This document shows, one piece after another, positions 35,726-47,481 of a stretch of 64,000 nucleotides of DNA; positions within the stretch are counted from its first letter, which is position 1, and every line of letters begins with the position of its first letter. This DNA comes from an uncultured Clostridium sp. (lineage in GTDB: Bacteria; Bacillota; Clostridia; TANB77; CAG-508), in contig CAMMDS010000006.1 of NCBI GenBank assembly GCA_946495655.1, positions 1,858-65,857 of the forward strand. Direction: 5' to 3'. The position numbers were made by a program, and so were the translations under genes. The notes beneath the pieces were generated by a model. The model searched no databases and was not told the DNA's origin. It saw only the letters and a program-made list of their open reading frames with translations.

Positions 35726-35881
35726 AGTCCAAGATATTATGATATTTTCTCATTTTGAGAAAAAGGAATTGCTTTGCTACAAAGTTAAAAGGCTTATGTC
35801 ACTATCAGAATAGCCTGAATATATATATAAACAAGAAGAATTCAATTTAGAATCCTTCTTGTTTAGATCACACATTAAGGG

Positions 35882-36367
35882 TTAGTTACTTATTGATTCA
35901 ATCTTGATGAAAATGTCGTTGCCATTAACAGTGTATTTACCTTCAAACCCTACTTTCTTACCCATAATACATTCTCCAATTGGAGAATTTACAGATACAT
36001 ACTTAGAGCTAGTATCACCAAAATTTCCAGTTAAGCAAAAACTACGTATTTTGACCTCTCCTTTTATAGAACGCTTTATAGAAACTGTAACTTGTGAACC
36101 TATTTTAACAGTATCACTTGTTTGAACAGAATCAGTCGGTATAATTTCTGCTGTATTTATGCTTATTTGTAATTCATGAATTTGTCTGATTAGGCCTCTT
36201 TCCTTAATCTCAGTTTGCTCAAAAGCAAAATTGTCATGCCAAGTATCACCTTCATTAGCTGCTGCCTGGCCTTTATATTTTCCTAACTCCCGTAATTCCT
36301 CCTTTTTGCTTTCCAATTCCCGAGTTAATTTTTCCAAACCTTCTTGTGTTAATTTTAGTCTTTTCAT
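35882..36367 (-). CDS. GreA/GreB-family transcription elongation factor paralogue
   Basis: N-terminal coiled coil (LTQEGLEKLTRELE...EGDTWHDNFAFEQ) plus a C-terminal FKBP-like domain (SVNSPIGECIMGKKVG). Confidence 0.7.
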   Translation of the reverse strand: MKRLKLTQEGLEKLTRELESKKEELRELGKYKGQAAANEGDTWHDNFAFEQTEIKERGLIRQIHELQISINTAEIIPTDSVQTSDTVKIGSQVTVSIKRSIKGEVKIRSFCLTGNFGDTSSKYVSVNSPIGECIMGKKVGFEGKYTVNGNDIFIKIESISN

Positions 36368-36404: not shown

Positions 36405-36424
36405 AAAAAGCATTTCTGCTTTTT
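36405..36424 (-). terminator. Rho-independent terminator closing the ten-gene nucleotide operon
   Basis: On the minus strand aaaaagca-gaaa-tgcttttt is followed by atatat. It lies 29 nt after the U32 stop. Confidence 0.65.
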
Positions 36425-36452
36425 AGCTATGTTAGAATATTCTTGTAACTAC

Positions 36453-38540
36453 TTATGCTCTTGTAACTATTAAATTATTCTCATATGACTCTTTCCATAA
36501 ATCAGTTTTTAATAGTTTTTCTACATAGTTACTATCTTTAAGTATATCTATTGTCATTTTAACATCTTTTGGTTTTTGAGAATATGTAATATACCTAAAT
36601 TTTACATTTTTATTTATATTAAATTTCGAGTAATCATTTAATATTGGTCTATTAAACAATATCATTCTATAATCTTTTTTGCATATTATTTCAAAATCTA
36701 AGTCTTTACTTATATTCTTTATTTTCTTTGCTTTTTGTAAATCAATATTGCAACTTTGGCAACCAAATACTTTTTTAAAACAATTTCTTGTATATACTAA
36801 TGGTAATTTTCCTCCTAATATATACTGTACTTTTTGATTTGCAAATATATTTTCGTTCTGCTCAAAATTTAACTCTGGAGAAGCAGTAAATTCTTCCACT
36901 TCATATTTTCTTAAGAAATTTAATGTTTCTTTATTCCATACATATATAGAATAATCTATATATTTCTTTTTCAATTTTATGTTTTTAAAAGCTTCCAGTT
37001 GAGATATTCTAGTAAACATAACCTCTTTGTTGTAAAGTTTCTTATATAGCTCATTATAATTATCACTATTCCAATTAAATAATGGCAATTTATATATTAT
37101 TTTATTTTCATATTTATTTACTATTTTTTCTAAATTTTCCATATAGTCTAAATTATAAATTATTTTTACAAACTTATCATCTTTTAGATTATCTACAACT
37201 TCTAAATTATCTGTTTCAACATATATCATATCTAATTGTATTTCATTCTTTCTATTATTAGTAGTAGTTTTAATGTTATTATTTTCTTCGACATACTTTA
37301 ATACTTCTAGCAACATACTATTAGAAATCATATATTTGTTATCTAAATTTCTAATATACCTAACTTTATATACGTTAATATTATTACTTATTTCTTTTAT
37401 TTTATTTATATATTCATCAATTGAAATACTAATTAAATCATTTGTATTATTAATAAAAAATGATTTAAACTCACCTTTATAATTTGTATAATCTATTCTT
37501 ACTATTTTATTATCTTTAATTTCTAATACAAAAAATATATTATTTTTTTCTATCTTATAACTATCTTTATATTCCGAATATACATACTTTATGTTCTCGT
37601 TTTCTTTATCTAATTCATTAGTAAATTTGTACGGTACGCCATGTTTATATTCAATAAACACATCCTTTTCATCTATTTCTTTAATGTCTTTAAGATTATA
37701 AATTGGTTTTATCCTATGATTTATATTTTCATACATCTTATTTTCTTCTGGTTTGCTACCATATAAGTATCCTTTTTGTTCATCTTCTGAATATTTATTC
37801 TTTATTTCATTTATTACTTTCTGTAATTCTTCCTTTGTTCTCCTTCTACCTTCTATCTTTAACGAATCAATTTCACCTAATTCTTTAGTTAAATTAATAC
37901 AATTCATATCAGGTACATATAAAAAAGTTCCTTTCTCACTATTTACTTCATAAACATCTCTACAAAGTATACTACATTTACCTCTATTACCACTTCCTCC
38001 ATTTATAAAGGAGCCAAAGAAGCATAATCCCGAATAACTTAAACATTGAGACCCCCATATAAAAGTTTCTATCTCTAATGTTGTATTTTTCTTTAATTTA
38101 TTTATTTCGTTCAAAGTTAATTCTCTCGCTAATATTACTCTTTTTACGCCTAGCTTTTCTAAAAATATCAAATCTTCTATATTATGAGCTCCAAATTGAG
38201 TTGATATGTGTAAATCAACATTTGGAAATTCTCTTTTTAATCTTAAAATTAATCCTATATCAGCTACAATAAATGAATCTGGTAATTCAATTTCTCCACT
38301 TTTTAATAGAGTAATAATATTTTCTATCTCTTCATCTAGCATAAGTGTATTTAATGTTAAATAAAACTTTATGTTATTTTCATGCAAATTCTTAATATTT
38401 CTATTGTATTCATCTATTGAAAAGTTTACAGCATTATTTCTTGCATTCCATTTCTTCAAACCACCATATACAGCATTTGATTTTTCCTCAATTGCTACAT
38501 TAATATGTATATTATTTCCAGCAGGGCTAAGTATTTCCAC
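36453..38540 (-). CDS. U32-family protein (peptidase U32 / anaerobic hydroxylase family) with a roughly 400-aa Asn/Lys-rich C-terminal extension
   Basis: EILSPAGN...AVYGG N-terminus. U32 signature WGSQCLSYSGLCFFGSFINGGSGNRGKCSILCR, with four Cys at aa 166, 173, 189 and 193. GTG start overlaps the upstream stop by 1 nt, with RBS gggagg. Confidence 0.75.
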   Translation of the reverse strand: MEILSPAGNNIHINVAIEEKSNAVYGGLKKWNARNNAVNFSIDEYNRNIKNLHENNIKFYLTLNTLMLDEEIENIITLLKSGEIELPDSFIVADIGLILRLKREFPNVDLHISTQFGAHNIEDLIFLEKLGVKRVILARELTLNEINKLKKNTTLEIETFIWGSQCLSYSGLCFFGSFINGGSGNRGKCSILCRDVYEVNSEKGTFLYVPDMNCINLTKELGEIDSLKIEGRRRTKEELQKVINEIKNKYSEDEQKGYLYGSKPEENKMYENINHRIKPIYNLKDIKEIDEKDVFIEYKHGVPYKFTNELDKENENIKYVYSEYKDSYKIEKNNIFFVLEIKDNKIVRIDYTNYKGEFKSFFINNTNDLISISIDEYINKIKEISNNINVYKVRYIRNLDNKYMISNSMLLEVLKYVEENNNIKTTTNNRKNEIQLDMIYVETDNLEVVDNLKDDKFVKIIYNLDYMENLEKIVNKYENKIIYKLPLFNWNSDNYNELYKKLYNKEVMFTRISQLEAFKNIKLKKKYIDYSIYVWNKETLNFLRKYEVEEFTASPELNFEQNENIFANQKVQYILGGKLPLVYTRNCFKKVFGCQSCNIDLQKAKKIKNISKDLDFEIICKKDYRMILFNRPILNDYSKFNINKNVKFRYITYSQKPKDVKMTIDILKDSNYVEKLLKTDLWKESYENNLIVTRA

Positions 38541-39151
38541 TATCTTTCCTCCCTATCCTTTCTTGGTACTAAATCTATTTTTCTTTCTTTTAATAATTTT
38601 TCAGTTTCATATATTACTTCTTCAATTGATTTGTTTTCTGTATTAATAGCCACATAAGGAATGTTAAATTTTTTCACAAAATATGACATTTTGTCATATC
38701 CAAACTTAATTGCATCTACATCTGTCAAATCTCTATCTGTTTTGTCTCTATTAGCTATTCTTCTCATTCTTGTCTCTATAGATGCATACAATACTACTGT
38801 TATGTCTGGTACTCCAACTAAATCAATCATTGTTTGAAATATCTTTTCCGTTTCTTCATCTCCAGCCCAAACAAAATTTGATAAATAATTTCTATCTAAA
38901 ATATAATTACCTTCTTTCATTAAAGAATATAAGTTCCCCAATCCTGTTAGCCAAGCTCTTAAAATATTGTTATCACTATTATAAATTATATTTTCTTGAT
39001 TATCTATATAGCTATATTCATTTGTTCCTTCTTTTAAGTTAAACATATGTTTTATTGGTCTGGCTATATAATCAAAATTATACTTCTGCACCAGATATTT
39101 TGCCAATGTCGTTTTCCCCACTCCATCCATTCCTTCTATAGCTATCTTCAC
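38540..39151 (-). CDS. P-loop (deoxy)nucleoside / (d)NMP kinase (Tmk/dNK superfamily)
   Basis: IAIEGMDGVGKTTLAKYL, ILDRNYLSN (DR motif), and the lid RMRRIANRDKTDRD. Confidence 0.65.
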   Translation of the reverse strand: MKIAIEGMDGVGKTTLAKYLVQKYNFDYIARPIKHMFNLKEGTNEYSYIDNQENIIYNSDNNILRAWLTGLGNLYSLMKEGNYILDRNYLSNFVWAGDEETEKIFQTMIDLVGVPDITVVLYASIETRMRRIANRDKTDRDLTDVDAIKFGYDKMSYFVKKFNIPYVAINTENKSIEEVIYETEKLLKERKIDLVPRKDREER

Positions 39152-39165
39152 GAAAAAATCTCCTT

Positions 39166-40110
39166 CTATTTAAATATATATTTTATTTTTGGAACTCCAT
39201 TAAAATTATTATTCCATTGATAACCATATGTACTAATATTATTAAATACGAGTTCTTCTCCTTTTTTCATTTCTTTACATTTAATATTTGCTAGATAAGT
39301 ATCAACTTCACAACATGAATTGCCATAAAAAGTAGTTGTAAAAGTTCCTTCATATATCTTATTCAATTTCGGATGTACCCACCTTTGATTAGCCATTTGA
39401 GAGAAATTTAATATTATTATTTGTTTTCTATCTATTATTTTGCTATCTATTACTTGACAATACAATACACCACAGTCTTTAAAAAGAAAATCTCCAATTT
39501 CAGTAACTAAATTTATATTATTAGGTAGTATTTCTCTTATTTTTTTTAAGTATCCTATACCCTCTTCCCAAGTTAAATCCTCTAAATGTCCCCCTATATT
39601 TAAAATTTCTAAATTACTAAACTGTTTTACTATACTTTTAATTTGTTCATAGATCTGCTCACATTTTAATTTATCCTTATAATCGGAATTATGAAAATGT
39701 AAGTATTTTATAGAATCCTTTATTTCTTTGTTGCAAAGAGAAATCGGCGTTCCAAAATGGCTCTCTTGAAAGTTTGTATTATCATTAAAATTTATTCTTA
39801 TTCCGTGTTTTTTATCCCAATCATTGATGTTATTAAATGCAACATTTACATTTTTTTTATCTTTTAATTCATATGACAATGGTCCACTAGAACATATTAG
39901 TTTGTTCTTTTGATATTTCTTAATTAATTGATACTCATTATTGTTTGAAATATCAAATCCATCCATATTTTTGCAAACTATCTTTAAAACTCGTCTATTT
40001 GTGCAACATTTTACTGGAAATATAAAACTTACTCCTTTACAAGTACTTTTTATTTTTTTTATATTTTCCTCAAACTTTTTTAAGTCAACGATTACAACTG
40101 GTAAATTCAT
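39166..40110 (-). CDS. Type III PLP-dependent decarboxylase-fold protein (Orn/DAP/Arg decarboxylase family), divergent
   Basis: Ordered family motifs: FPVKCCTN (PLP Lys), GFDISNNNE, SHFGT, LHFHNSD, NIGGHL, TEIGDFL, YGNSCCEVD, GEELVF...STYGY. Shorter than usual at 314 aa. Confidence 0.55.
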   Translation of the reverse strand: MNLPVVIVDLKKFEENIKKIKSTCKGVSFIFPVKCCTNRRVLKIVCKNMDGFDISNNNEYQLIKKYQKNKLICSSGPLSYELKDKKNVNVAFNNINDWDKKHGIRINFNDNTNFQESHFGTPISLCNKEIKDSIKYLHFHNSDYKDKLKCEQIYEQIKSIVKQFSNLEILNIGGHLEDLTWEEGIGYLKKIREILPNNINLVTEIGDFLFKDCGVLYCQVIDSKIIDRKQIIILNFSQMANQRWVHPKLNKIYEGTFTTTFYGNSCCEVDTYLANIKCKEMKKGEELVFNNISTYGYQWNNNFNGVPKIKYIFK

Positions 40111-40127
40111 GTTCTATTACTCCTCTT

Positions 40128-40496
40128 CTATAATTCAGGTAATAAATATTCCATTCTCACGGTCTTATCTTTCAATATTATTTCTGTATTAATATTATCA
40201 TTATTAATTTGATAGATATATTCTCTACATTTTCCACATGGTGAATATATTTTTCCTTCTTCATTTACAGCAATAAGTTTTATTATTCTCGTTTCTCCAT
40301 CTTGTACCATACTAGCTATTGCATTATATTCTGCACATGTTCCTAATGAACATCCAGTTTCTATTGACACACCAGTATAAATTTTTTTATTTTGTGCAAT
40401 TAGAGCTACTGAAACATGTCCAATTCTTGTTACTTTATTCGGCTTATATGATGTAGCATTTTTTTTAGCAATTTTATACAACTCATTATTTTCCAT
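40128..40496 (-). CDS. cdd: Cytidine/deoxycytidine deaminase (small homotetrameric CDA type)
   Basis: Zinc motifs CAEYNAI and SPCGKCREY, 122 aa. Confidence 0.8.
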   Translation of the reverse strand: MENNELYKIAKKNATSYKPNKVTRIGHVSVALIAQNKKIYTGVSIETGCSLGTCAEYNAIASMVQDGETRIIKLIAVNEEGKIYSPCGKCREYIYQINNDNINTEIILKDKTVRMEYLLPEL

Positions 40497-41406
40497 ATTT
40501 TTCTCTCACAATCTTTACAATTTCTTTTCTAGTTAAAAACTGATTTGCCTTTGCTTTTCCATTAGAAAAATTAATATTTAATAAATCAGAAATCAACTCT
40601 TCTGTTTTCTTATTTTGTGCTATTATAATAGAATATCCATTTAAAATATCTACACAGTTTATTGATAAGTATTCTACATTTTTTTCTGATTGAACTTCAT
40701 CTAAAATCTTTCTAATTTTTTTTTCTTCTTTTTCTAAGAAGCCATCTACATTAGCCACTTCGAGTTGTCCCATAGACCAGCTTATTTTTAAAAATGGATC
40801 CTTATATTCAACTTCCATTTCTTCTCTTAAAGAATTTTCAAATATAGATTTTTTTTCAAATATTTCCTTTATTTTTTCTTCTGAAATATCTGTGCAAGAT
40901 TTTTCTAACCATTCTACCATTTTTCTATCTCGCTCTGTTGTGATTTTTGAATTTAGATTTACTGTATTAGATATAATTCCATAATATAACAATATTGCCG
41001 CATTTCTTGAAATCTCATAATTAAATAATTTATATTTTTCGGCAACTAAAGTTGCTGCCGCTCCTACCTCTTCAATTTGTATTTTTGCATTAGGCATTTT
41101 ATCTAGTTCTTCAGACTTTTTGTGATGGTCTATAATTTCTATAACATTGTTCAATTTGATTTTCTGATTCAATTCAAATGGTTGATTTGTATCTACTAAT
41201 ATTATTTTATCTTCATCACTAATACTCTTTTCGCTTTCTAATTTAATATTAAACATTTCACAAACGATTTTAACTTCTTTTTTAGGCTCTCCATTAATAA
41301 AATATCCAGTTTTTTGTTCTTGTTTATTTAATAATTCTGAATATGCATACATACATGCTACTCCATCCATATCTGGCATATTATAAGATAATATTATATT
41401 TTTCAT
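40486..41406 (-). CDS. DHH/DHHA2 phosphoesterase (family II pyrophosphatase-like)
   Basis: NMPDMDGVAC, LVDTN, IIDHHK, ISNT, and a C-terminal DHHA2-like domain. Overlaps cdd by 11 nt. Confidence 0.7.
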   Translation of the reverse strand: MKNIILSYNMPDMDGVACMYAYSELLNKQEQKTGYFINGEPKKEVKIVCEMFNIKLESEKSISDEDKIILVDTNQPFELNQKIKLNNVIEIIDHHKKSEELDKMPNAKIQIEEVGAAATLVAEKYKLFNYEISRNAAILLYYGIISNTVNLNSKITTERDRKMVEWLEKSCTDISEEKIKEIFEKKSIFENSLREEMEVEYKDPFLKISWSMGQLEVANVDGFLEKEEKKIRKILDEVQSEKNVEYLSINCVDILNGYSIIIAQNKKTEELISDLLNINFSNGKAKANQFLTRKEIVKIVREKYGK

Positions 41407-41480
41407 TTTATTTTATTCCTTTCTCATTCTTATAATAACACATATTTATTCAAAGATGTTTTACTTTTTACTTATATTTT

Positions 41481-42197
41481 TTATTTTTCTTTTATAGCTA
41501 ATAAATATCCAAATCTATGAAAATGATCATAAGATGTAACAACATGTGCTGCTTCAAATACAGGTTTCTTTTGCTCATAATTTGATATGATTTTCCAGCC
41601 ATCTCCTAGAAATTTAGCTGCTTCTCCATTTCTAAAAAATTTATAATTTGGAAAACTTTCAAAATCTTCTTCTTCGAGTGCCATCATATAATCTATGTAT
41701 AATATACCACCATTCTCCACAATATTCTTTAATTTATTAATTTTATCTTGTAATGAAAATTTATTATTTATTGTATAATGTAATGAACAACTTGTAAAAA
41801 CGACATTAAATTTTTCTTTTGGTGGGTTTTCATAAAAATTTCTTTCTTCAATTCTAGCATAATCTTCTAATTTTTCTATTTCTATTCTTTCCTGTAATCC
41901 TCTTATTTTCCTTGTTTCAAGTGGGTAATTGGGTGATTTGAAATTTCTATCATATTTTGGAATCTTTTTCCTTTTTTCATATATTGGAAAATCCTTTTCT
42001 CCTCCAAACAAATCAATTGTATCAATATCATATCCTACCACTTTATGATGAGCTCTAGCAAACGGGATTAAAAATTTTCCATCTGAACAGCCTACAATAC
42101 AAGCTGTCCAATTCTCATTTTTAAATCTTTCATCTGCTAGTTTAATTAATCTATATAACCTTGATGGTGTTTGCCCCCAAATACTTTTTGTTTTCAT
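41481..42197 (-). CDS. Class I SAM-dependent methyltransferase-like protein
   Basis: IVGCSDGKFLIPFARAHHKVVGYDID fits motif I plus the acidic loop. FTSCSLHY fits motif II/III. Substrate unknown. Confidence 0.5.
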   Translation of the reverse strand: MKTKSIWGQTPSRLYRLIKLADERFKNENWTACIVGCSDGKFLIPFARAHHKVVGYDIDTIDLFGGEKDFPIYEKRKKIPKYDRNFKSPNYPLETRKIRGLQERIEIEKLEDYARIEERNFYENPPKEKFNVVFTSCSLHYTINNKFSLQDKINKLKNIVENGGILYIDYMMALEEEDFESFPNYKFFRNGEAAKFLGDGWKIISNYEQKKPVFEAAHVVTSYDHFHRFGYLLAIKEK

Positions 42198-42215
42198 TAA
42201 AACTCTCCTTTTCTA

Positions 42216-42806
42216 TTATAATACTGATTTTATAAAATTAACACATTCTATGTCAAAAGTACAATTTCTCTTTTTTATATCTTCTTCTGTCAATTCACAT
42301 ATATACTTTTGTAATTTAGGATCAATTTGAATTCTAGATAGGCCATCATATTTTGAAGGTTTGTCACTTACTTTTGAAGTAAAAATGAATGTATCTTCTT
42401 TAATTTCTTTTGTATATTCTTGACCGTCTTTTATAATCGCAAGTCCTGTATAATAATAAGCTTCGCTTTCTCCTCCTACTTTCTTTAGTGCTTCAACATA
42501 ATAATCTTGAGTTTCTTCCATAGTCAATTCTTTTCCATTTATTCTGTGAACATATAAGCCTGGTTGCTTTTCAAATTCTTTTATATATAAAGCTGTATCT
42601 CCTGCTATTGTTGGTATTTTTGCTATCTTATAGTATGCTTGTGCTTTTATCATAGCATTTTCTGTAACTGTTTTTCCGTCTTCATTTACTTTAATATTAA
42701 TGTTTAACTCCTTTGGCGAAATTATTTCAATGTCCATTCCTTCTAATCTTTTTTTCATTGATTCTATTTTGTATTTATTTCCAGTTGCATACAATAGTTT
42801 TTTCAT
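42216..42806 (-). CDS. Ham1/RdgB-family non-canonical NTP pyrophosphatase (paralogue 1)
   Basis: LLYATGNKYKIESM, GDTALYIKEFEKQPGLYVHR. Confidence 0.65.
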   Translation of the reverse strand: MKKLLYATGNKYKIESMKKRLEGMDIEIISPKELNINIKVNEDGKTVTENAMIKAQAYYKIAKIPTIAGDTALYIKEFEKQPGLYVHRINGKELTMEETQDYYVEALKKVGGESEAYYYTGLAIIKDGQEYTKEIKEDTFIFTSKVSDKPSKYDGLSRIQIDPKLQKYICELTEEDIKKRNCTFDIECVNFIKSVL

Positions 42807-42827
42807 AAACTTACCTCCTATATTTTA

Positions 42828-43865
42828 TTATATACTATAATATATTTCTCCTTGATTTTTGAAATTTAAAATTTCTTTATTTATTTCATCATCTAATTCT
42901 GCAACTCTATAAATATTGTCTCTAATTTTTACCAAAGGATTTATATATCTTTTCTTTCCTTTAGCCTCTATACTATATTTTCCTTTTATTCTTTCTTTGC
43001 TCTTATAAACTTTATCGAAATTTTTAAATTTTTCCCATTGTTCTTTTATTTTTGCATTTCCTGTTTCATCTAGTATTCTAACAATATCTTCTTCTTTTTG
43101 CTTCATAAACATCTTAGGCTCTAATATGCCCTCATACACCGCCATTCTTAAAATATCTGATAAAAAATTATTTGTTATAGTAGAAACACCACCACTCATA
43201 AATTTGCCATTATCTAAAACAGCTTTTGTCATTTTCTTAGCTAGCTCTATATCTTGAAAGCACATTTCTTCTGATCCATATTCGTTTTTTGTTATTGATA
43301 TATCTTTATATATTTTATTTACTTCTTTCCAAGTAAGAATTCCTCTAGCTGTACCTGTATATAAATTATATTCCAATCTATCTGATGATAATTGTGGCAT
43401 ATCATTATCTGCGATTGGATATATTGCATAATCTGATACTTCTTCTACTTTTATATTATACTTTTTTAATATATCATTTATTTCTTTTGATTCTCTTATA
43501 ATTTCTTCTGTAGCATTCTCTGTGCTTGTCTGTGTTTCTGCATCATTATTATAATAATCAATTACATGTGAAAAAGTAGGAGTAGCTATGTCATGTAATA
43601 GCCCAGCTATAGATTGCTTTATATCGTTGGTAAAATTCCATACAATCAACCCTACACCAACCGAATGTTCAAATCTTGAATAATTGTATTCGAATGTCTG
43701 TAATTTATTTGATATATAGTCTCTACCACAGTTCTGTCCAACATATTTTAACCTTTTCATCTCTTTTGTCTGAATAATTTCATTCATAAAATCCGGCATA
43801 CTCTGCGAGTATATGCTATGTAATTTTTTTATATTTTCTAAATCTTTCTCCGTTAACTCTTTCAT
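42828..43865 (-). CDS. HD-domain phosphohydrolase, SAMHD1/dNTP-triphosphohydrolase-like
   Basis: SRFEHSVGVG, LLHDIATPTFSH, SDRLEYNLYTG. Confidence 0.65.
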   Translation of the reverse strand: MKELTEKDLENIKKLHSIYSQSMPDFMNEIIQTKEMKRLKYVGQNCGRDYISNKLQTFEYNYSRFEHSVGVGLIVWNFTNDIKQSIAGLLHDIATPTFSHVIDYYNNDAETQTSTENATEEIIRESKEINDILKKYNIKVEEVSDYAIYPIADNDMPQLSSDRLEYNLYTGTARGILTWKEVNKIYKDISITKNEYGSEEMCFQDIELAKKMTKAVLDNGKFMSGGVSTITNNFLSDILRMAVYEGILEPKMFMKQKEEDIVRILDETGNAKIKEQWEKFKNFDKVYKSKERIKGKYSIEAKGKKRYINPLVKIRDNIYRVAELDDEINKEILNFKNQGEIYYSI

Positions 43866-43868
43866 TTC

Positions 43869-45557
43869 TCATCTTTCCTTTTCTTCCATATCTATATTTC
43901 TTTCCTCTAAGCATCTATCTCGAAAAAAAGTAATTCCATTTAATCCTTTATTATATGCTTGTAATATATAATTCTGAATTTGTTCTACTGAAGTCTTGTT
44001 GGGTAAATTAACTGTTTTGGAAATAGATTCATCTATACAGCTGTTTATAATAGCCATTACTTCTATATGATCTTCTGCATTTATTTCTCTTGCTGTTTTA
44101 TAAATTTCTTTCAGTTCTATAAATCTATCATCTAATTGTGAACAATCTCCAGTTTTTAAAACTGTTTTTATAATCTCTTCTTGTTCATTATTAGAATACC
44201 TATTTCTTATATAATCAATAAATATAGGATTTAATCCTGTTTGTGATGATGAGTCATAAAGTGTAAAATATGGTTCTATGCTATATGAAGCATTAACTAT
44301 ACTTGCTGATCTTCCTGTAGGTGGAACAGCAGTAGTCGAAGAATTTCTAATCCCATATTTTTGAATTCCATTTATTAATGCTTGCCAATCTATATCGCTA
44401 ACCCATTCGTTTTTGTTTTTTCTAAAGCGATTGTACCAATTTTCTTGGCCACATAAGCTATCATTATATTTTCTAAAACTACCTCTTTCCCTTGACAAGT
44501 TTACAGATTCCACTTTACTATAGAAATTAATAAATGTAAATAAATCCTTAGTTAATTCTCTTGTTTCTATGGAATCATATGGAAGTTTAAGTTTAGCTAA
44601 CATGTCAGCAAAGCCACAAACTCCGACACCAATTCTCCTTTTATCTTCAATTATTTCTGGGTTAGATTTTGCATTTCTTATAGATATATCACATAAATTG
44701 TCTAACATTCTTGTAATTACTTGAACTGATAATTTCAATTCTTCTTTGTCTATATTTCCATTTTCATCTATCATTTTAGCTAAATTAATATATGAGAATT
44801 GGCATACTTCCCCTTCTGACATAGCTATCTCTGCACATGGAGCAACACTTTTGTATTCATATTGCTTTTGTGGTAAAGGATTAGTTTGGTTGAACCTATC
44901 CACAAAAATTATTCCTGGTTCCGCACAATAATGTATTGCTTCTGAGATCTTTCTTAGAATTTCTAGATTTGTTAACCTTACTTTTACTCCATTTTTAAGA
45001 ACCTCATATTCTTTTTCTCCATCAAAAAAATCATCTGGTATTTTTATAGATATATTATAATGGCATGTGTTAAAATCTCTTTTCTTCTTTAAATCAATGA
45101 AATCCAATATATATGGAGAATTAACATCTAATGTTCCCATTGCTGACAATCTATTTGGATAAATTTGAATCAAATCATGTATTACCGAATTAATTTTTTC
45201 TATTGTGTCACATGGATCATCTACTAGGTTAAGGTCATATCCAGACCCCATTGTGGTAGCAGCATAAGGTTCTAAAATAGCCTTAAGATTATTTATATCT
45301 TTTCTTAAATCTACTGGTACTATTGTACAAGAACTTACAGGCTCGTTGTCATCCAGTAAATTCTTTAATATTGGCGTTCCTAATACGATTTTATTTTCTA
45401 TTATTAATCTTTCTATATTTTCTAAATAAGTAGTATTTCTTCTATCATACTTTAATTCTAATTCTTTTAACTTTGATATTATTTTTCTTATGAATTCTTC
45501 TGAATTATCATTAGTGTCAATTATTTTCATCGATTTCATCAATTCATAATTAAACAT
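43869..45557 (-). CDS. Class II (B12-type) ribonucleotide reductase-like protein, short form, atypical active-site loop
   Basis: VSSCTIVP (C77), CAEPGIIFVD, the finger loop VAPCAEI (C241, E243), CQFSYINL (C252, same 11-residue spacing as NPCGE...CNLGSINL), and TAVPPTGRSASIVNASYSIEPYF. Confidence 0.7.
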   Translation of the reverse strand: MFNYELMKSMKIIDTNDNSEEFIRKIISKLKELELKYDRRNTTYLENIERLIIENKIVLGTPILKNLLDDNEPVSSCTIVPVDLRKDINNLKAILEPYAATTMGSGYDLNLVDDPCDTIEKINSVIHDLIQIYPNRLSAMGTLDVNSPYILDFIDLKKKRDFNTCHYNISIKIPDDFFDGEKEYEVLKNGVKVRLTNLEILRKISEAIHYCAEPGIIFVDRFNQTNPLPQKQYEYKSVAPCAEIAMSEGEVCQFSYINLAKMIDENGNIDKEELKLSVQVITRMLDNLCDISIRNAKSNPEIIEDKRRIGVGVCGFADMLAKLKLPYDSIETRELTKDLFTFINFYSKVESVNLSRERGSFRKYNDSLCGQENWYNRFRKNKNEWVSDIDWQALINGIQKYGIRNSSTTAVPPTGRSASIVNASYSIEPYFTLYDSSSQTGLNPIFIDYIRNRYSNNEQEEIIKTVLKTGDCSQLDDRFIELKEIYKTAREINAEDHIEVMAIINSCIDESISKTVNLPNKTSVEQIQNYILQAYNKGLNGITFFRDRCLEERNIDMEEKER

Positions 45558-46397
45558 TTATCTTTCAAATACACCTTCCTTTTTAACCATTTTATCTTTT
45601 AACTTCAATATTCCGTAATCATCTATTGATAGTGTTGCTACCTCTACAGCTTTCTTTAATGCATATTCTTCGCTAAAACCATTGGCAATCAAATTCATAA
45701 ACACACCATTTAAGCAATCTCCTGCTCCTAATTTATCTACAACATTTTTCTTTACAACTGCTGGTTGGTAAAACTCTTTATTTTTTGCTTTATATATGCA
45801 CCCTTCTTCTCCTAGTTTAATTATTTTTGTTTTAGCTTTACAATTTAATAACTCTTTAAATTCTTTATCAATAAATGCAATATCAACTATATCAAAAATT
45901 TCTTTAGTTTTCTTCATTCTTGAAAACCAATTATTTGTATCAACACTTAATATTGCATTTGAATTTTGTTTTACCTGTTTTATCATTTCTAATAAATATT
46001 TGGGATCACTTGTGGTGAAATGTATAAACTTTGCTTCCAAAAAATTCTTAGGAATGTCTTTAAAACTAATTATCATTTTGTTTTCAACTTCTCCATATGT
46101 AGTTGAATCTTGTCCATCTTTACTAAAAAATTTAGTATAAAAATGTGTTGTTTTAGTGTTTATTGACTGTAATCCTGATATATTTAAATTAAAAGCTTTT
46201 AATAAGTTTATATCAAAATCATTACCTATTTTAGTTACTATACCTACATTAAAAAATATACTTGCTGGAATTGCAGAATATAGGCAAGCTCCACCAACAT
46301 CTCTTTCTCTTACTGCATTATCAATTACATATTCTTTAGTATCATAGGCTGTGTTTCCGATAATTATTAAATTGGGACATCCTCTTGTTTTTTTCAT
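45558..46397 (-). CDS. PfkB-family (ribokinase/nucleoside kinase-like) kinase
   Basis: DVGGACLYSA N-terminal motif and the C-terminal DKLGAGDCLNGVF. First gene of the operon, directly abutting the RNR-like gene. Confidence 0.75.
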   Translation of the reverse strand: MKKTRGCPNLIIIGNTAYDTKEYVIDNAVRERDVGGACLYSAIPASIFFNVGIVTKIGNDFDINLLKAFNLNISGLQSINTKTTHFYTKFFSKDGQDSTTYGEVENKMIISFKDIPKNFLEAKFIHFTTSDPKYLLEMIKQVKQNSNAILSVDTNNWFSRMKKTKEIFDIVDIAFIDKEFKELLNCKAKTKIIKLGEEGCIYKAKNKEFYQPAVVKKNVVDKLGAGDCLNGVFMNLIANGFSEEYALKKAVEVATLSIDDYGILKLKDKMVKKEGVFER

Positions 46398-46429
46398 TTT
46401 ACTCCTTACTCTCTCTTTTACCTTTTAAG

Positions 46430-46458
46430 AGTATACTATAATCTACTAATTTTGTCAA
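46430..46458 (-). promoter_or_regulatory. SigA-type promoter of the ten-gene operon
   Basis: On the minus strand: ttgaca (46458-46453), a 17-nt spacer, then tatact (46435-46430). It lies about 33 nt upstream of ATG 46397. Confidence 0.6.
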
Positions 46459-46567
46459 TAATTTCCATAATTTTTGTTTTTTATTTAAATATCAGTAAAC
46501 AGCCATTTATAATACATTTAATATTGTATAATCAATTTTAGAGTAATTAACAAATTTATTCATTTCA

Positions 46568-47195
46568 CTATTTTATTTGTTCTAAATTGACTAATTTTTC
46601 TTTTCTAAAAGTCATTTTTAGTAAACAAGGAGATGTTATATCTAAAACTGTATTATTATATACTAATCTTACATCTTCATTTACTTCACACCAGTTTAAT
46701 AAGAAGAATTTTATTGAACCACCAATGGCTTATAACAGCAATTTTCTTACCTTCATATTCTTTTAATATTCTATCAAAGAACTCTGTCATTCGTTTTTTT
46801 GTTTCTTCTGCGCTTTCTCCATCAGAAGTCTTAAAATTTCTATCTAATAATTGTTCTTGCGAAGGATCTCTTGTTTTTTTGTCTTTCATAAATTCTCCTA
46901 GTTCTTTTAAATTTCCTAGTTTTCTTTCACTTAAATTACTATCTAAATTAATAGGTAATTGATTTGAATTAGCAATATATTTAGCAGTAGCTTTTGCTCT
47001 AGTATAACTACTCGACCAAATAACATCAATATTAGTTAATTCTTCATTTTCACTTAATCTTTTAGATTGTTCTTCTCCATATACGGATAAAATTTCCTTT
47101 TCATTAATCATTTGTGAATCTTCATTTGTATTTCTAATTCCGTTTTCTTGGGCCGTTTCAGCATGCCTAATTAAATAAACTATAGTATCTAACAT
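46568..47195 (-). pseudogene. Histidine phosphatase (phosphoglycerate-mutase-like) family protein, interrupted by a 1-nt insertion
   Basis: VYLIRHAET (RHG motif). The track ORF ends ISHWWFNK...*. Shifting one base gives ISH|GGSIKFFLLNWCEVNEDVRLVYNNTVLDITSPCLLKMTFRKEKLVNLEQIK*. The junction is agc cat [t] ggt ggt at about 46724. The span is 628 nt (3n+1). Confidence 0.65.
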
Positions 47196-47481
47196 TTTCT
47201 GTAACTCCTTTTCTCTTTTTTATAATTTATATTATATCAATACAAATTACTTTTTACTACCGTTACAGTAAATTTTTACAACAAATTCAACATTAGTATT
47301 TTAATGTTTTTGCAGGATCAGGGAGTCTACTCGACTCCCGATAACTGCCTAAAAGCGGGGCTTTTAGCGGTGGACTCTTTTGTTTTAGAGTAGACTATCG
47401 GACGACTCTTTTTTTATTAAAAAACAAGCATAAAATGTCTAACTTTTTGATTTTAGTTCATTCTATACTTGCTTTTCAATC

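What the first reader, a model, noticed from the sequence alone, without database searches (positions are those of the whole stretch)
36405..46458. Ten-gene, translationally coupled operon of nucleoside/nucleotide enzymes ending in a giant U32 protein: candidate pathway for a modified pyrimidine (deoxy)nucleotide
A near-consensus promoter (ttgaca, 17 nt, tatact) at 46430-46458 and a terminator at 36405-36424 bracket ten minus-strand genes. Gaps between them are 0-75 nt and there are two overlaps (1 nt and 11 nt). In order the genes are:
- PfkB nucleoside-type kinase
- short class II RNR-like protein
- SAMHD1-like HD phosphohydrolase
- Ham1 NTP pyrophosphatase
- SAM methyltransferase-like protein
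- DHH/DHHA2 phosphoesterase
- cytidine deaminase
- PLP decarboxylase-fold protein
- Tmk/dNK-type P-loop kinase
- 695-aa U32 protein
I know of no described operon with this composition.
Established knowledge: U32 proteins include the O2-independent hydroxylases TrhP (tRNA ho5U34), RlhA (23S ho5C2501) and UbiU/UbiV. In B. subtilis the U32 genes yrrN/yrrO sit beside the O-methyltransferase trmR that makes mo5U.
Inference: U32 plus methyltransferase next to a deaminase, kinases, a reductase and house-cleaning (d)NTPases could build and police a 5-hydroxy/5-methoxy-type (or otherwise modified) pyrimidine nucleotide. The product could be destined for DNA or RNA, or could be a nucleoside natural product.
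A mundane alternative is a nucleoside salvage plus dNTP-pool sanitation operon. A dNTP-depleting anti-phage role (deaminase plus dNTPase logic) is a third reading.
Basis: partly seen in the sequence, partly recalled or inferred. Interest (0 to 1): 0.8.

Follow-up and report, generated by a model that had tools for sequence, protein, structure and literature searches.

The report
Mosaic modified-nucleotide operon, viperin-cluster relative
The ten-gene array is real, but it is a patchwork of three swappable gene modules; its conserved core (a nucleotide kinase, a giant iron-sulfur U32 enzyme and a methyltransferase, plus an odd GreA-like factor) sits beside an antiviral viperin enzyme in other gut bacteria, so it most likely makes and controls an unusual nucleotide and is not ordinary salvage.

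Summary
The ten minus-strand genes, their spacing and all ten domain calls are confirmed. None of the ten reaches a curated housekeeping (equivalog) score. The ten genes are not one conserved unit.

- **Core.** The Tmk-like kinase, the 695-aa U32 protein and a dedicated 236-238-aa TehB-fold SAM methyltransferase are invariant in about 20 species of uncultured gut Bacillota.
- **Viperin link.** In 17 of about 20 species-level loci this core lies next to a prokaryotic viperin-like radical-SAM gene. The window kinase matches PADLOC's VakA model, whose accession sits beside the viperin (pVip) models.
- **Window lineage.** It has no viperin gene. It carries PfkB, an RNR-like protein, HD and Ham1 instead. 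The RNR-like protein belongs to a broad unnamed clade in which an Asn essential in class I RNR is replaced (NPCGE to APCAE).
- **Strain variation.** PfkB, RNR-like and HD are deleted in some strains between 12-bp repeats. DHH, CDA and the PLP-decarboxylase-like gene form a 2.3-kb cassette absent from the nearest relatives.

Best reading: a viperin-type pathway for a non-canonical, probably pyrimidine, nucleotide, with a B12-type RNR-like radical enzyme in the viperin slot. The chemistry and the purpose (defence or antagonism) are inferred, not shown.

The parts
46430..46458 (-). Sigma-70-like promoter candidate, TTGACA-17-TATACT, about 30 nt upstream of the PfkB start codon
   Evidence: Seen (11 of 12 matches). 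Such matches are not enriched over shuffles in this AT-rich region. The promoter is deleted together with module A in strains L001/L004.
45558..46397 (-). Module A: PfkB-family kinase (279 aa). The GAGD motif is present; the substrate is unknown (ribose or nucleoside type).
   Evidence: Pfam PfkB 77 bits. The best NCBIfam hit is ribokinase at 46 bits against a cutoff of 300. PfkB homologues recur in the cluster in L010, L011, L023, L025 and L027. A PfkB-family gene with no phmmer match to the window PfkB precedes the RNR-like gene in L033.
43869..45557 (-). Module A: class II-like RNR barrel protein (562 aa) of an Asn-less clade. It has APCAE...CQFSYINL where canonical RNRs have NPCGE...CNLGS(I/V)NL.
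   Evidence: - Ribonuc_red_lgC 261 bits; no N-terminal RNR domain.
- NrdJ_Z 325 bits against a cutoff of 400.
- 181 bits to T. maritima NrdJ 1xje. The thiyl Cys, the Glu and both redox Cys are kept, but Asn is replaced by Ala.
- The substitution is conserved across the clade.
42828..43865 (-). Module A: HD-domain phosphohydrolase (345 aa), distantly like SAMHD1/dGTPase
   Evidence: - Pfam HD 31 bits.
- PDB 2hek 27 bits; SAMHD1 about 15 bits.
- A 347-aa homologue (296 bits) follows an RNR-like gene and a kinase in the unrelated locus L032.
- Truncated by the strain deletion.
42216..42806 (-). Divergent Ham1/RdgB-like NTP pyrophosphatase (196 aa)
   Evidence: Pfam Ham1 77 bits, covering profile positions 2-150 of 186 only. 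TIGR00042 scores 65 bits against a cutoff of 145. A more canonical paralogue lies at 47901-48488 (124 bits). The two paralogues share only about 23 bits.
41481..42197 (-). Core: dedicated SAM-methyltransferase-fold protein (238 aa). Sequence shows VGCSDGK and GYDID, read here as SAM-binding motifs I and II.
   Evidence: - The family has only about 256 clusters, all about 236 aa and 55-66% identical.
- AF2 mean pLDDT 89.6.
- Best Foldseek matches are TehB, the OvoA/OvoM methyltransferases, UbiG and ChlM, with TM about 0.6.
- It is present next to the U32 gene in every locus that extends far enough.
40486..41406 (-). Module C (cassette): DHH/DHHA2 phosphoesterase (306 aa), like a family-II pyrophosphatase
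   Evidence: DHH 52 bits and DHHA2 17 bits. NF003877 scores 136 bits against a cutoff of 283. The gene lies in segment 39151-41468, which is absent from L013 and L010. CYTH-like proteins occupy the analogous place in L011, L020, L024 and L026; L025 carries a CYTH-domain gene next to its viperin-like gene.
40128..40496 (-). Module C: small tetrameric-type cytidine deaminase (122 aa). The CAE and PCGKC zinc motifs are present.
   Evidence: NF004064 scores 67.3 bits against a cutoff of 74. The motifs were read from the sequence. A CDA recurs in L011, L020, L024 and L026.
39166..40110 (-). Module C: compact fold-type-III PLP decarboxylase-like protein (314 aa). The sequence contains PVKC, LHFHNSD and NSCCEVD, which resemble the PLP-site motifs of ODC/DapDC (comparison from memory).
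   Evidence: Pfam N and C domains score 23.6 and 21.7 bits, at the thresholds. nspC scores 38 bits. The best PDB hit is carboxynorspermidine decarboxylase, E = 1.5e-4. The gene recurs in L011, L018, L020, L024 and L026.
38540..39151 (-). Core: Tmk-type P-loop NMP kinase (203 aa; GMDGVGKTT). Its stop overlaps the U32 start by 1 nt.
   Evidence: Thymidylate_kin 43 bits and dNK 34 bits. PADLOC VakA 53 bits over model positions 3-161 of 163, and PDC-M51B 58 bits. The gene is present just upstream of U32 in all loci whose upstream flank is held.
36453..38540 (-). Core: 695-aa U32 Fe-S protein. The N-terminal U32 barrel carries CX6CX15CX3C. The C-terminal third has a second beta/alpha domain with four more invariant Cys.
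   Evidence: - Peptidase_U32 159 bits.
- TrhP 146 bits (cutoff 534) and UbiU 134 bits (cutoff 440).
- More than 120 full-length homologue clusters at 48-98% identity.
- Invariant C166, C173, C189, C193, C587, C594, C597 and C620.
- AF2 mean pLDDT 84.8.
- The best PDB fold is the U32 protein Mk0906, 5d88.
36405..36424 (-).
   Evidence: Centroid -5.5 kcal/mol and z = -2.35. It was not reported by the terminator scan.
35882..36367 (-). Cluster-associated divergent GreA-like factor (161 aa). Its coiled-coil tip reads GDTWHDNF where canonical GreA has GDLKENAEY.
   Evidence: Full-length GreA architecture, but 59.5 bits against a cutoff of 139. The same GDxWHDN tip is found in the GreA-like and MBL-GreA fusion genes of the related loci. 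The gene is adjacent to U32 in L010, L013 and L001; in L025 it lies three genes downstream of U32.
35828..35865 (-). Strong intrinsic terminator, the probable 3' end of the unit
   Evidence: 16-bp stem followed by a T-rich tail. -24 kcal/mol, z = -6.3, and 0 of 200 shuffles fold as well.
43175..47853 (.). Strain-variable 4.68-kb segment: a 101-aa ORF, HisPhos, the promoter, PfkB, RNR-like and the N-terminal two thirds of HD. It is deleted in L001/L004 between 12-bp direct repeats (CAAATAATTTTT).
   Evidence: blastn of 99.6-99.98% identical contigs. Junction sequences. Gene lists.
39151..41468 (.). Strain-variable 2.3-kb DHH-CDA-PLPdc cassette. It is absent, with the same junctions, from L013 (same or sister species) and L010.
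   Evidence: blastn and synteny.

Best explanation
The array is a lineage-specific, mosaic version of a conserved gene-cluster family of uncultured gut Bacillota. I found no description of this family in the held literature.

**Shown**
- The invariant core is a Tmk-type NMP kinase, translationally coupled to a 690-700-aa U32 Fe-S enzyme, plus a dedicated TehB-fold SAM methyltransferase.
- A GreA-like factor with an altered tip is almost always present.
- In most species the core is flanked by a prokaryotic viperin-like radical-SAM enzyme.
- The window lineage has no viperin gene. It carries PfkB, an Asn-less class II-type RNR-like radical enzyme, an HD phosphohydrolase and a divergent Ham1.
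- This strain has also gained a DHH, cytidine deaminase and PLP-decarboxylase-like cassette.

**Inferred mechanism**
1. The kinases (PfkB, Tmk-like) charge a pyrimidine nucleoside or NMP up to the NDP/NTP level.
2. A radical enzyme alters the ribose. This is viperin in the relatives and the RNR-like protein here.
3. The U32 enzyme hydroxylates the base and the methyltransferase caps it. The U32 step may use a prephenate-derived oxygen, because several relatives carry a DAHP synthase between the U32 and methyltransferase genes.
4. HD, Ham1, DHH (or CYTH) and CDA dephosphorylate or deaminate the product. They either release it or keep its pool in check.
5. The product acts on nucleic-acid synthesis, most plausibly transcription. 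The GreA-like factor protects or rescues the host RNA polymerase.

Whether the purpose is anti-phage defence or antagonism by an antimetabolite is open.
For: **Layout and coupling.**

**No housekeeping assignment.** All ten proteins score below the NCBIfam equivalog cutoffs.

**Conserved core.**
- The U32 family is conserved over its full length.
- 19 species-level loci were found, all from uncultured gut MAGs.
- Kinase, U32 and methyltransferase are present in every locus.
- The methyltransferase family is small and confined to this context. It has a small-molecule MTase fold.

**Viperin link.**
- The neighbouring radical-SAM proteins score 157-160 bits on PADLOC pVip ('viperins associated with kinases') and 133-137 bits on NCBIfam viperin_w_prok. 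The next family, MoaA, scores 75-77 bits.
- A viperin-like gene is present in 17 of about 20 loci.
- The window kinase hits PADLOC VakA and PDC-M51B, as does its L025 orthologue.

**Swap at the same locus.** L025, the nearest viperin-bearing relative, has PfkB, kinase, U32, MT, viperin-like, CYTH and GreA-like. The window, L010 and L013 have RNR-like, HD and Ham1 instead.

**RNR-like enzyme.**
- It keeps the thiyl Cys, the Glu and the Cys pair, but Asn is replaced by Ala throughout a clade of at least about 100 clusters at 50% identity.
- Clade members sit beside kinases, HD, NUDIX (sometimes fused) and, in one case, a cob(I)alamin adenosyltransferase.

**Recurrent accessory genes.** CDA, PLPdc, CYTH and PfkB recur in distant versions of the cluster.

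**DAHP synthase.** It lies between the U32 and MT genes in several loci.

**GreA-like subfamily.** The GDxWHDN tip is shared across loci, including fusions to an MBL hydrolase.

**Accessory behaviour.** Modules are gained and lost between strains.
Against: - No viperin gene lies in the 64-kb window. The link to viperin rests on orthologous context in other species.
- No product, substrate or phenotype is known for any core gene.
- PADLOC recognises only the kinase among the ten proteins.
- The window's flanks are housekeeping genes (aldolase, SmpB, AhpC, Met-tRNA synthetase), not a defence island.
- Loss of PfkB, RNR-like and HD in some strains shows that this module is not needed by the rest.
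- The GreA-like gene could be the lineage's only GreA, kept nearby by synteny.
- The viperin-like proteins of the relatives are below NCBIfam's viperin cutoff of 180.
- The replacement of viperin by the RNR-like protein is positional inference only.
Confidence: 0.55

Rival explanations
1. Mundane salvage and sanitation. The genes are a nucleoside salvage operon (PfkB nucleoside kinase, CDA, Tmk, RNR) joined to dNTP-pool house-cleaning (Ham1, HD, DHH) in a small-genome gut bacterium. The U32 and methyltransferase genes are unrelated passengers.
For: Every domain has a textbook role in nucleotide metabolism. The flanks are housekeeping genes. The CDA nearly reaches its equivalog cutoff, 67.3 against 74 bits. 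The low GC content hints at a streamlined organism that may depend on salvage.
Against: - None of the ten reaches an equivalog cutoff. The kinase, RNR, Ham1 and PPase-like proteins are far below theirs.
- The RNR-like protein lacks the Asn that is essential in class I RNR, and it belongs to a separate clade.
- A better Ham1/RdgB lies just outside the array.
- Essential salvage genes would not be deleted or inserted between near-identical strains.
- Kinase, U32 and MT are invariant partners and lie beside viperin-like genes elsewhere.
Confidence: 0.15
2. RNA modification. The U32 protein and the methyltransferase install a ho5U/mo5U- or ho5C-type modification on tRNA or rRNA, like TrhP with TrmR or like RlhA. 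The nucleotide enzymes are neighbours without a shared function.
For: All characterised nucleic-acid U32 enzymes act on RNA (my own knowledge of TrhP and RlhA). The best NCBIfam hit is TrhP at 146 bits. The U32 Cys motif is intact. The DAHP synthase in relatives fits TrhP's dependence on prephenate.
Against: - The score is far below the TrhP cutoff of 534.
- The architecture differs: 695 aa, an extra C-terminal domain and four extra Cys.
- The methyltransferase resembles small-molecule MTases (TehB, OvoM, UbiG) and was not matched to an RNA methyltransferase.
- The U32 start overlaps the stop of a Tmk-type kinase in the window, and this kinase precedes U32 in every locus whose upstream flank is held.
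- The viperin-like, CYTH, NUDIX and HAD partners all act on free nucleotides.
Confidence: 0.12
3. Nucleotide-depletion defence. The HD dNTPase, the deaminase and the RNR-like protein destroy or divert (d)NTP pools on phage infection, like the dGTPase and dCTP-deaminase defence systems or SAMHD1.
For: The HD protein is distantly related to SAMHD1/dGTPase. Asn-less RNR-like proteins pair with NUDIX or HD hydrolases. One of them (Amycolatopsis, L034) lies near a weak ApeA_NTD1 hit and carries a NUDIX that matches PADLOC PDC-S07. Strain-level presence and absence is typical of defence genes.
Against: PADLOC gives no hit for the HD, CDA or RNR-like proteins. The deaminase is the small nucleoside-CDA type and did not match a dCTP deaminase. 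This reading does not explain the invariant U32, methyltransferase and kinase core or the two kinases, which build nucleotides and do not destroy them.
Confidence: 0.08

Closest known systems
Prokaryotic viperin (pVip) systems with an adjacent nucleotide kinase. These are PADLOC models pVip, pVip-kinase and VakA. The biology is from Bernheim et al. 2021 (Nature, my own knowledge). The kinase linkage is described in bioRxiv 10.1101/2023.09.13.557418.
   Same: - The window's Tmk-like kinase matches VakA over the whole model.
- The orthologous kinase, U32 and MT core lies beside a pVip-like radical-SAM gene in 17 of about 20 related loci.
- CYTH-type triphosphatase partners appear here. [quoted passage not shown]
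   Different: - The window has no viperin gene.
- The clusters are much larger than the known one- or two-gene pVip systems. They add U32, one or two methyltransferases, a GreA-like factor, and in relatives HAD, LysR, DAHP synthase and a second radical-SAM/SPASM protein.
- I found no paper linking viperin with U32 or GreA.
U32-family O2-independent hydroxylases: TrhP (tRNA ho5U34, with TrmR giving mo5U), RlhA (23S ho5C2501) and UbiU/UbiV
   Same: U32 domain at 159 bits. The CX6CX15CX3C motif is conserved. A methyltransferase partner is present. A DAHP synthase lies next to U32 in relatives, which fits a prephenate-derived oxygen donor. A possible two-barrel arrangement recalls the UbiU-UbiV and TrhP1-TrhP2 pairs.
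   Different: Scores are far below the equivalog cutoffs: 146 against 534 bits for TrhP, and 134 against 440 for UbiU. No DUF3656 domain is found, and four further invariant Cys are present. The methyltransferase is TehB-like. The obligatory partner is an NMP kinase, which points to a free-nucleotide substrate.
Class II (adenosylcobalamin) ribonucleotide reductase NrdJ, e.g. Thermotoga maritima 1xje
   Same: The ten-stranded barrel domain aligns at 181 bits. The thiyl-radical Cys, the catalytic Glu and both redox Cys align. One clade member lies next to a cob(I)alamin adenosyltransferase.
   Different: The Asn of NPCGE is replaced by Ala, Ser, Pro or Val in the whole clade. That Asn is essential in class I RNR (Kasrayan et al. 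2002, from memory). There is no Ribonuc_red_lgN, ATP-cone or TSCPD domain. The NrdJ_Z score of 325 is below the cutoff of 400. Partners are kinases and NUDIX or HD hydrolases.
Nucleoside-analogue pathways that pair a radical or redox sugar-editing enzyme with an HD phosphohydrolase and a kinase. Examples are oxetanocin A (OxsB, a B12-dependent radical-SAM enzyme, with OxsA, an HD protein) and cordycepin (Cns2, HD, with Cns3, a kinase). My own knowledge.
   Same: The logic is shared. The substrate is a phosphorylated nucleotide, a cobalamin-type radical enzyme acts on it, and an HD hydrolase strips the phosphates. The RNR-like, HD and kinase trio recurs as an independent module in L032.
   Different: No sequence relationship to OxsA, OxsB or the Cns proteins was detected; the PDB sequence search with the HD protein found only 2hek and SAMHD1. 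The radical enzyme here has an RNR barrel and is not a radical-SAM protein.
dNTP-pool defence and sanitation enzymes: SAMHD1/dGTPase, dCTP deaminase, RdgB/Ham1
   Same: HD and Ham1 domains and a deaminase are present.
   Different: There are no PADLOC hits. Ham1 and HD are divergent and sit in a building pathway with two kinases. A more canonical RdgB lies outside the array.

Membership tests
Prokaryotic viperin-kinase system (pVip) | A viperin-family radical-SAM gene in the locus | tested here: not met
   No radical-SAM homologue is present among the window ORFs (phmmer). A viperin-like gene is present in 17 of about 20 related loci.
Prokaryotic viperin-kinase system (pVip) | An adjacent NMP kinase of the type that PADLOC models as VakA | tested here: met
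   PADLOC VakA scores 53 bits (E = 1.4e-14) over model positions 3-161 of 163. PDC-M51B scores 58 bits. PADLOC states no cutoff. Reading 'VakA' as 'viperin-associated kinase' is my inference from its accession, which is adjacent to the pVip models.
Prokaryotic viperin-kinase system (pVip) | Makes ddhNTP-type chain terminators and protects against phage | not testable with these tools
   Needs LC-MS and phage assays.
Prokaryotic viperin-kinase system (pVip) | Lies in a defence island or mobile context | tested here: inconclusive
   The window flanks are housekeeping genes. L011 lies next to resolvase, Mob_Pre and TnpV genes. L012 lies next to DUF2357 and a recombinase. Modules come and go between strains.
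U32 O2-independent hydroxylases (TrhP/RlhA/UbiU-UbiV) | Peptidase_U32 domain | tested here: met
   159 bits against a gathering score of 22.4. The best PDB fold is the U32 protein 5d88.
U32 O2-independent hydroxylases (TrhP/RlhA/UbiU-UbiV) | Four conserved Cys, CX6CX15CX3C, for a 4Fe-4S cluster | tested here: met
   C166, C173, C189 and C193 are invariant in 22 sequences.
U32 O2-independent hydroxylases (TrhP/RlhA/UbiU-UbiV) | Orthology to a characterised member (equivalog score) | tested here: not met
   TrhP 146 bits (cutoff 534), UbiU 134 (cutoff 440) and UbiV 43 (cutoff 275). Only residues 1-274 match.
U32 O2-independent hydroxylases (TrhP/RlhA/UbiU-UbiV) | Prephenate-dependent hydroxylation of a pyrimidine C5 or a quinone ring | not testable with these tools
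   Only a hint is available: a DAHP synthase lies between the U32 and MT genes in several related loci.
Class II ribonucleotide reductase (NrdJ) | RNR barrel with the thiyl Cys, the Glu and the redox Cys pair | tested here: met
   Ribonuc_red_lgC 261 bits. The alignment to 1xje and the SSC...PCAE...C motifs are.
Class II ribonucleotide reductase (NrdJ) | Active-site Asn of the NPCGE motif | tested here: not met
   The window has APCAE. The change is conserved in L010 and in the clade, whereas the canonical sequences in the same alignment have NPCGE.
Class II ribonucleotide reductase (NrdJ) | Family score and N-terminal domain | tested here: not met
   NrdJ_Z 325 bits against a cutoff of 400. 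There is no Ribonuc_red_lgN or TSCPD domain.
RdgB/Ham1 ITP/XTP pyrophosphatase | Equivalog-level match over the whole profile | tested here: not met
   TIGR00042 65 bits against a cutoff of 145. The Pfam match covers profile positions 2-150 of 186. The neighbouring paralogue at 47901-48488 scores 124 bits.
Tetrameric cytidine deaminase | CAE and PCxxC zinc site, and the family score | tested here: inconclusive
   The motifs are present in the sequence. NF004064 scores 67.3 bits against a cutoff of 74. The substrate could be cytidine or an analogue, as with blasticidin-S deaminase (my own knowledge).
Family-II inorganic pyrophosphatase | DHH plus DHHA2 at the equivalog score | tested here: not met
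   NF003877 136 bits against a cutoff of 283. DHHA2 scores 17 bits against a gathering score of 27.
Fold-type III PLP decarboxylase (ODC/DapDC/CANSDC) | Both domains present and the PLP-binding Lys | tested here: inconclusive
   The domains score 23.6 bits (gathering 23.4) and 21.7 bits (gathering 23). PVKC, LHFHNSD and CCEVD were read from the sequence and compared with the ODC/DapDC motifs from memory. The protein is 314 aa, about 80 aa shorter than typical. No structure was predicted.
Transcript-cleavage factor GreA | Equivalog score and the acidic tip (D41, E44 of GDLKENAEY) | tested here: not met
   59.5 bits against a cutoff of 139. The tip reads GDTWHDNF, one residue longer, and is conserved as GDxWHDN in the cluster subfamily.
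Class I SAM-dependent methyltransferase | Rossmann-type MTase fold with SAM-binding motifs | tested here: met
   AF2 mean pLDDT 89.6. Foldseek probability 1.0 to TehB, OvoM and UbiG. G36, D39, G40 and D57 are invariant. The Pfam methyltransferase hits are below the gathering scores.

The most novel reading that the evidence does not exclude
The Asn-less, cobalamin-type RNR-like protein is a new kind of nucleotide-editing radical enzyme. It has taken the place of viperin in this lineage and makes a ribose-altered pyrimidine nucleotide. A free-nucleotide U32 hydroxylase and its methyltransferase further decorate the base. The GDxWHDN GreA-like factor gives the host RNA polymerase immunity by excising the incorporated analogue. 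Together these would form a multi-enzyme 'designer chain-terminator' system, for defence or antagonism, of a type not yet described.
Probability: 0.2. Interest if true: 0.9.

Novelty: new variant of a known kind. Interest (0 to 1): 0.7.

Why it matters
If this reading is right, four things follow.
- **U32 enzymes.** They would gain a substrate class, free nucleotides, beyond RNA and quinones.
- **RNR-like clade.** At least about 100 clusters at 50% identity lack the Asn of NPCGE. This would become a candidate family of radical nucleotide-editing enzymes.
- **Viperin systems.** In gut Bacillota they would be seen as embedded in 8-12-gene pathways that decorate, dephosphorylate and police the product. 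That implies antiviral or antibacterial nucleotide analogues more elaborate than ddhNTPs.
- **GreA-like factors.** They would suggest how a producer protects its own RNA polymerase from a chain terminator.

Each point can be tested directly by expressing small gene sets.

Tried and rejected
- **PADLOC on the ten proteins.** Only the kinase hit; no dGTPase or dCTP-deaminase-type hit was found. The depletion reading was therefore down-weighted.
- **Is the C-terminal part of U32 a duplicated U32 barrel?** hhalign of the N-terminal against the C-terminal third gave E = 0.027 and probability 1.8%. The register looks sensible (ARELT/SPELN, WGSQC../GGKLP..), but the result is not significant. Foldseek matched only the N-terminal barrel and generic TIM barrels. 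Left as inconclusive.
- **Are the L032 radical-SAM genes near an RNR-like gene viperins?** They score only 51-63 bits on the radical-SAM core. Not counted as viperin.
- **Phage or plasmid origin.** The MT-like protein has no phage hit. Full-length U32 is not on plasmids. Phage RNRs are canonical and 25-28% identical.
- **Riboswitch or RNA elements.** Rfam gave no hits in the window.
- **Literature.** Searches for U32 with viperin, GreA, kinase or defence, and for RNR-like with NUDIX, found nothing relevant.
- **Promoter statistics.** Not informative in this AT-rich DNA.

Full report

Pfam and NCBIfam reproduce every domain call:
- PfkB
- an RNR large-subunit barrel only
- HD
- Ham1
- a weak methyltransferase signal
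- DHH with a weak DHHA2
- a small cytidine deaminase
- both domains of the Orn/DAP/Arg decarboxylase fold, at threshold
- a Tmk/dNK-type P-loop kinase
- Peptidase_U32

The TTGACA-17-TATACT promoter is at 46458-46430. In this 26% GC DNA such matches are as common as in shuffles, 94 found against 95.8 expected.

The terminator scan does not report it. The only strong terminator (-24 kcal/mol, z = -6.3) lies after the next gene, a GreA-like ORF at 35882-36367. The unit therefore probably has eleven genes.

**2. None of the ten is a recognisable housekeeping orthologue.**

Every NCBIfam hit is below its curated cutoff:

| Model | Bits | Cutoff |
|---|---|---|
| NrdJ_Z | 325 | 400 |
| dTMP kinase | 45 | 83 |
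| RdgB | 65 | 145 |
| Family-II PPase | 136 | 283 |
| TrhP | 146 | 534 |
| Cytidine deaminase | 67 | 74 |

Only the deaminase comes close. A second, more canonical Ham1/RdgB (124 bits) lies just upstream at 47901-48488.

**3. The array is a mosaic.**

*Strain deletion.* Metagenome contigs that are 99.6-100% identical to the window carry the same U32 gene. Two of them, L001 and L004, lack window 43175-47853. That segment holds a 101-aa ORF, a histidine phosphatase, the promoter, PfkB, the RNR-like gene and two thirds of HD. The junction lies in a 12-bp direct repeat, CAAATAATTTTT, which is present at both ends in the window. This is therefore a deletion from a window-like ancestor.

*Cassette.* L013 is the GTDB representative of the same or a sister species (100% identical U32, 94-98% nucleotide identity). 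L010 is a more distant species (70% U32 identity). Both lack 39151-41468, the DHH, CDA and PLP-decarboxylase-like genes, with the same junctions. That segment is a cassette gained in this strain's line.

**4. What is conserved.**

The 695-aa U32 protein belongs to a tight full-length family: more than 120 clusters at 90% identity, 690-708 aa, 48-98% identical. A scan of one genome per GTDB species found 19 loci, all from uncultured gut MAGs labelled Bacilli, Bacillota or Clostridia; a few carry bin labels that look wrong.

I called ORFs in all loci and searched them with the window proteins and with proteins from two distant loci. The results:
- **Invariant trio.** A Tmk-like kinase lies upstream of U32, separated from it only by an MBL-GreA fusion gene in about half of the loci. 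The 236-238-aa methyltransferase-like gene lies downstream, or upstream in the window's lineage. The trio is present in every locus that extends far enough.
- **Methyltransferase-like family.** It is small (about 256 clusters), uniform in length and 55-66% identical, which is more conserved than U32 itself. An AlphaFold model (pLDDT 89.6) matches TehB, the OvoA/OvoM methyltransferases, UbiG and ChlM. This is a small-molecule class I SAM methyltransferase fold.
- **U32 protein.** It keeps the family's CX6CX15CX3C motif and has four further invariant Cys in a C-terminal beta/alpha domain. Whether that domain is a second, degenerate U32 barrel could not be settled.

**5. The link to viperin.**

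In 16 loci the gene after the methyltransferase-like gene is a 255-256-aa radical-SAM protein.
- Its best matches by a wide margin are PADLOC pVip 'viperins associated with kinases' (157-160 bits, nearly the full model) and NCBIfam viperin_w_prok (133-137 bits, cutoff 180). The next family, MoaA, scores 75-77 bits.
- L025, the closest viperin-bearing relative of the window lineage, has a 303-aa viperin-like gene that scores 86 bits on PADLOC pVip.
- The window's kinase matches PADLOC VakA over the whole model and also PDC-M51B, the kinase partner of a candidate radical-SAM system.
- Linkage between viperin and a kinase is established.
- I found no paper that links viperin with U32 or GreA.

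The typical distant cluster reads, in order:
1. small GreA-like gene
2. LysR regulator
3. Cof-type HAD phosphatase
4. kinase
5. an MBL (RNase Z/Apyc1-like) domain fused to GreA
6. U32
7. type I-beta DAHP synthase (in some loci)
8. methyltransferase-like gene
9. viperin-like gene
10. a second radical-SAM/SPASM gene (in some loci)
11. a second methyltransferase
12. a 263-aa protein of unknown family

Some loci add a CDA, a CYTH-like protein, a PLP-decarboxylase-like protein, PfkB or NUDIX. So CDA, the PLP-decarboxylase-like protein and PfkB, as well as the core genes, recur with this core in other species. DHH is unique to this strain. CYTH triphosphatase-type proteins occupy the analogous position elsewhere, which suggests non-homologous replacement of a phosphohydrolase step.

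**6. What the window lineage has instead of viperin.**

The window contains no radical-SAM homologue. L025 has PfkB, kinase, U32, MT, viperin-like, CYTH and GreA-like. The window, L010 and L013 have PfkB, RNR-like, HD, Ham1, MT, kinase, U32 and GreA-like.

*The RNR-like protein.*
- It aligns with T. maritima NrdJ at 181 bits and keeps the first redox Cys (VSSCT), the thiyl-radical Cys, the Glu and the second Cys.
- The Asn of NPCGE is Ala (APCAE). That Asn is essential in class I RNR according to Kasrayan et al. 2002, which I cite from memory.
- In an alignment of 33 homologues, the 520-705-aa relatives carry (A/S/P)PC(A/S)E...C(Q/H/R/E)F(S/G)Y. The canonical class II enzymes in the same alignment have NPCGE...C(N/L)LGS.
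- Among the best 150 representatives at 50% identity from 1.84 billion proteins, about 105 have a non-Asn residue at this position and 26 have Asn.
- The clade lacks the N-terminal RNR domain and the TSCPD domain. Where sources name its members, they are called 'hypothetical' or generically 'reductase'.

*Its neighbours elsewhere.*
- A P-loop kinase and a homologue of the window's HD protein (L032; the HD scores 296 bits).
- A PfkB-family gene (no phmmer match to the window PfkB) and several nucleoside enzymes (L033).
- A NUDIX hydrolase (L034 in Amycolatopsis; L036), or a NUDIX domain fused to it (L035 in Bacteroidaceae).
- In L036, a PduO-type cob(I)alamin adenosyltransferase.

RNR-like protein, phosphohydrolase and kinase therefore form an independent, mobile module, probably dependent on cobalamin.

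**7. The GreA-like gene.**

The 161-aa protein has the full GreA architecture but scores only 59.5 bits against a cutoff of 139. The same GDxWHDN(F/P) tip is shared by the small GreA-like genes and by the MBL-GreA fusions of the related loci. Those loci often carry two copies. This is a cluster-specific GreA subfamily, which points to RNA polymerase as a player.

**8. Mechanism.**

*Shown:*
- gene order and coupling;
- conservation of the core;
- the fold of the methyltransferase;
- the Fe-S motif of U32;
- the active-site change in the RNR-like protein;
- the viperin-like neighbours;
- modular gain and loss.

*Inferred:*
1. PfkB and the Tmk-like kinase raise a pyrimidine nucleoside or NMP to the NDP/NTP level.
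2. A radical enzyme edits the ribose. This is viperin in the relatives and the RNR-like protein here.
3. U32 hydroxylates the base and the methyltransferase methylates it. This follows the analogy with TrhP/TrmR and RlhA. The DAHP synthase hints at a prephenate-derived oxygen.
4. HD, Ham1, DHH or CYTH, HAD and CDA release, recycle or detoxify the product. The human 'extended viperin pathway', named in the abstract of PMC10913068, is an analogy. I did not read that paper beyond the abstract.
5. The GreA-like factor lets the host polymerase cut off an incorporated terminator. There is a precedent in a polymerase-associated nuclease that removes ddhCMP (title of PMC9415739).

I put about 0.55 on the general reading, a dedicated viperin-type non-canonical-nucleotide pathway. 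I put about 0.2 on the full specific scheme.

**9. Rivals.**
- **Salvage and sanitation, 0.15.** It fits the domain names and the housekeeping flanks. It does not fit the sub-threshold scores, the missing Asn, the extra canonical Ham1, the strain-level indels, or the invariant U32, MT and kinase core with its viperin-like neighbour.
- **RNA modification by U32 and MT, 0.12.** It fits the precedent for the family. It does not fit the obligatory kinase, the small-molecule methyltransferase fold, or the partners that act on free nucleotides.
- **dNTP depletion, 0.08.** It finds no PADLOC support and does not explain two kinases.

**10. Novelty and verdict.**

The nearest known kind is the prokaryotic viperin-kinase system. 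The window's version lacks viperin itself and adds components never described with it. No paper in the searchable library links them. The family is absent from the phage and plasmid collections.

I file it as a new variant of a known kind, with three parts that each deserve attention:
- a putative U32 enzyme for free nucleotides, with its own methyltransferase;
- the Asn-less RNR-like clade;
- the GDxWHDN GreA-like subfamily.

Interest: 0.7.

Noticed in passing
window 43163-43174 and 47854-47865: A 12-bp direct repeat (CAAATAATTTTT on the minus strand) marks both ends of the 4.68-kb segment that strains L001 and L004 have lost. This is a clean example of repeat-mediated deletion inside a gene cluster. 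It leaves a truncated HD ORF of 146 aa.
   Followed up: yes
window 32653-34092: A 479-aa beta-CASP metallo-beta-lactamase nuclease. NCBIfam scores are 221 bits for Cas14-like and 196 for aCPSF1, both far below their cutoffs, and there is a weak Apyc1 hit. About 500 bp of other sequence replaces it in strains L001 and L003. MBL domains fused to GreA occur inside the related clusters, so this gene may belong to the same functional neighbourhood.
   Followed up: partly
window 47901-48488: A second, more canonical Ham1/RdgB gene (TIGR00042 124 bits against 65 for the in-cluster copy) lies about 1.5 kb upstream of the array, so the in-cluster Ham1 is a specialised paralogue.
   Followed up: yes
window 46686-47195: A histidine-phosphatase gene lies directly upstream of the promoter. 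Its best NCBIfam match is alpha-ribazole phosphatase CobC (69 bits, cutoff 163). It is co-deleted with PfkB and the RNR-like gene, and a homologous stretch is present in L025. This could be a weak hint of a cobalamin link, or another nucleotide phosphatase.
   Followed up: partly
window 34465-35202: A 1-Cys peroxiredoxin/AhpC-like gene lies downstream of the GreA-like gene. AhpC-like sequences are also found close to the cluster in L025. It may be plain synteny or a redox partner for the Fe-S or radical enzymes.
   Followed up: no
window about 13183-14627: GC skew and gene orientation both switch sign near 14 kb: plus-strand genes lie to the left and minus-strand genes to the right. There is a 1.4-kb stretch of about 20% GC without an ORF of 100 aa or more. 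This looks like a replication terminus or origin switch point.
   Followed up: no
window 26249-26334: ARAGORN calls a tRNA-Leu (GAG) here, but Rfam's gathering-threshold scan reports no RNA family anywhere in the window. The call also overlaps the start of a 331-aa ORF (26241-27236). It may be a false positive.
   Followed up: no
L035 8001-10088; L034 8001-10192; L036 2966-5219: Asn-less RNR-like proteins are fused to a NUDIX hydrolase (Bacteroidaceae) or directly followed or preceded by one (Amycolatopsis, L036). In L036 a cob(I)alamin adenosyltransferase, a HIT protein and a UDG lie alongside. This two-gene module appears to be uncharacterised.
   Followed up: partly
L012 12048-12888 (also L014): The DAHP synthase between the U32 and methyltransferase genes is split into two ORFs (144 and 118 aa) in these loci. 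This could be a frameshift, a sequencing error or a real split. In L015, L020 and L028 only the N-terminal query half gave the best hit for a single ORF at that position.
   Followed up: no
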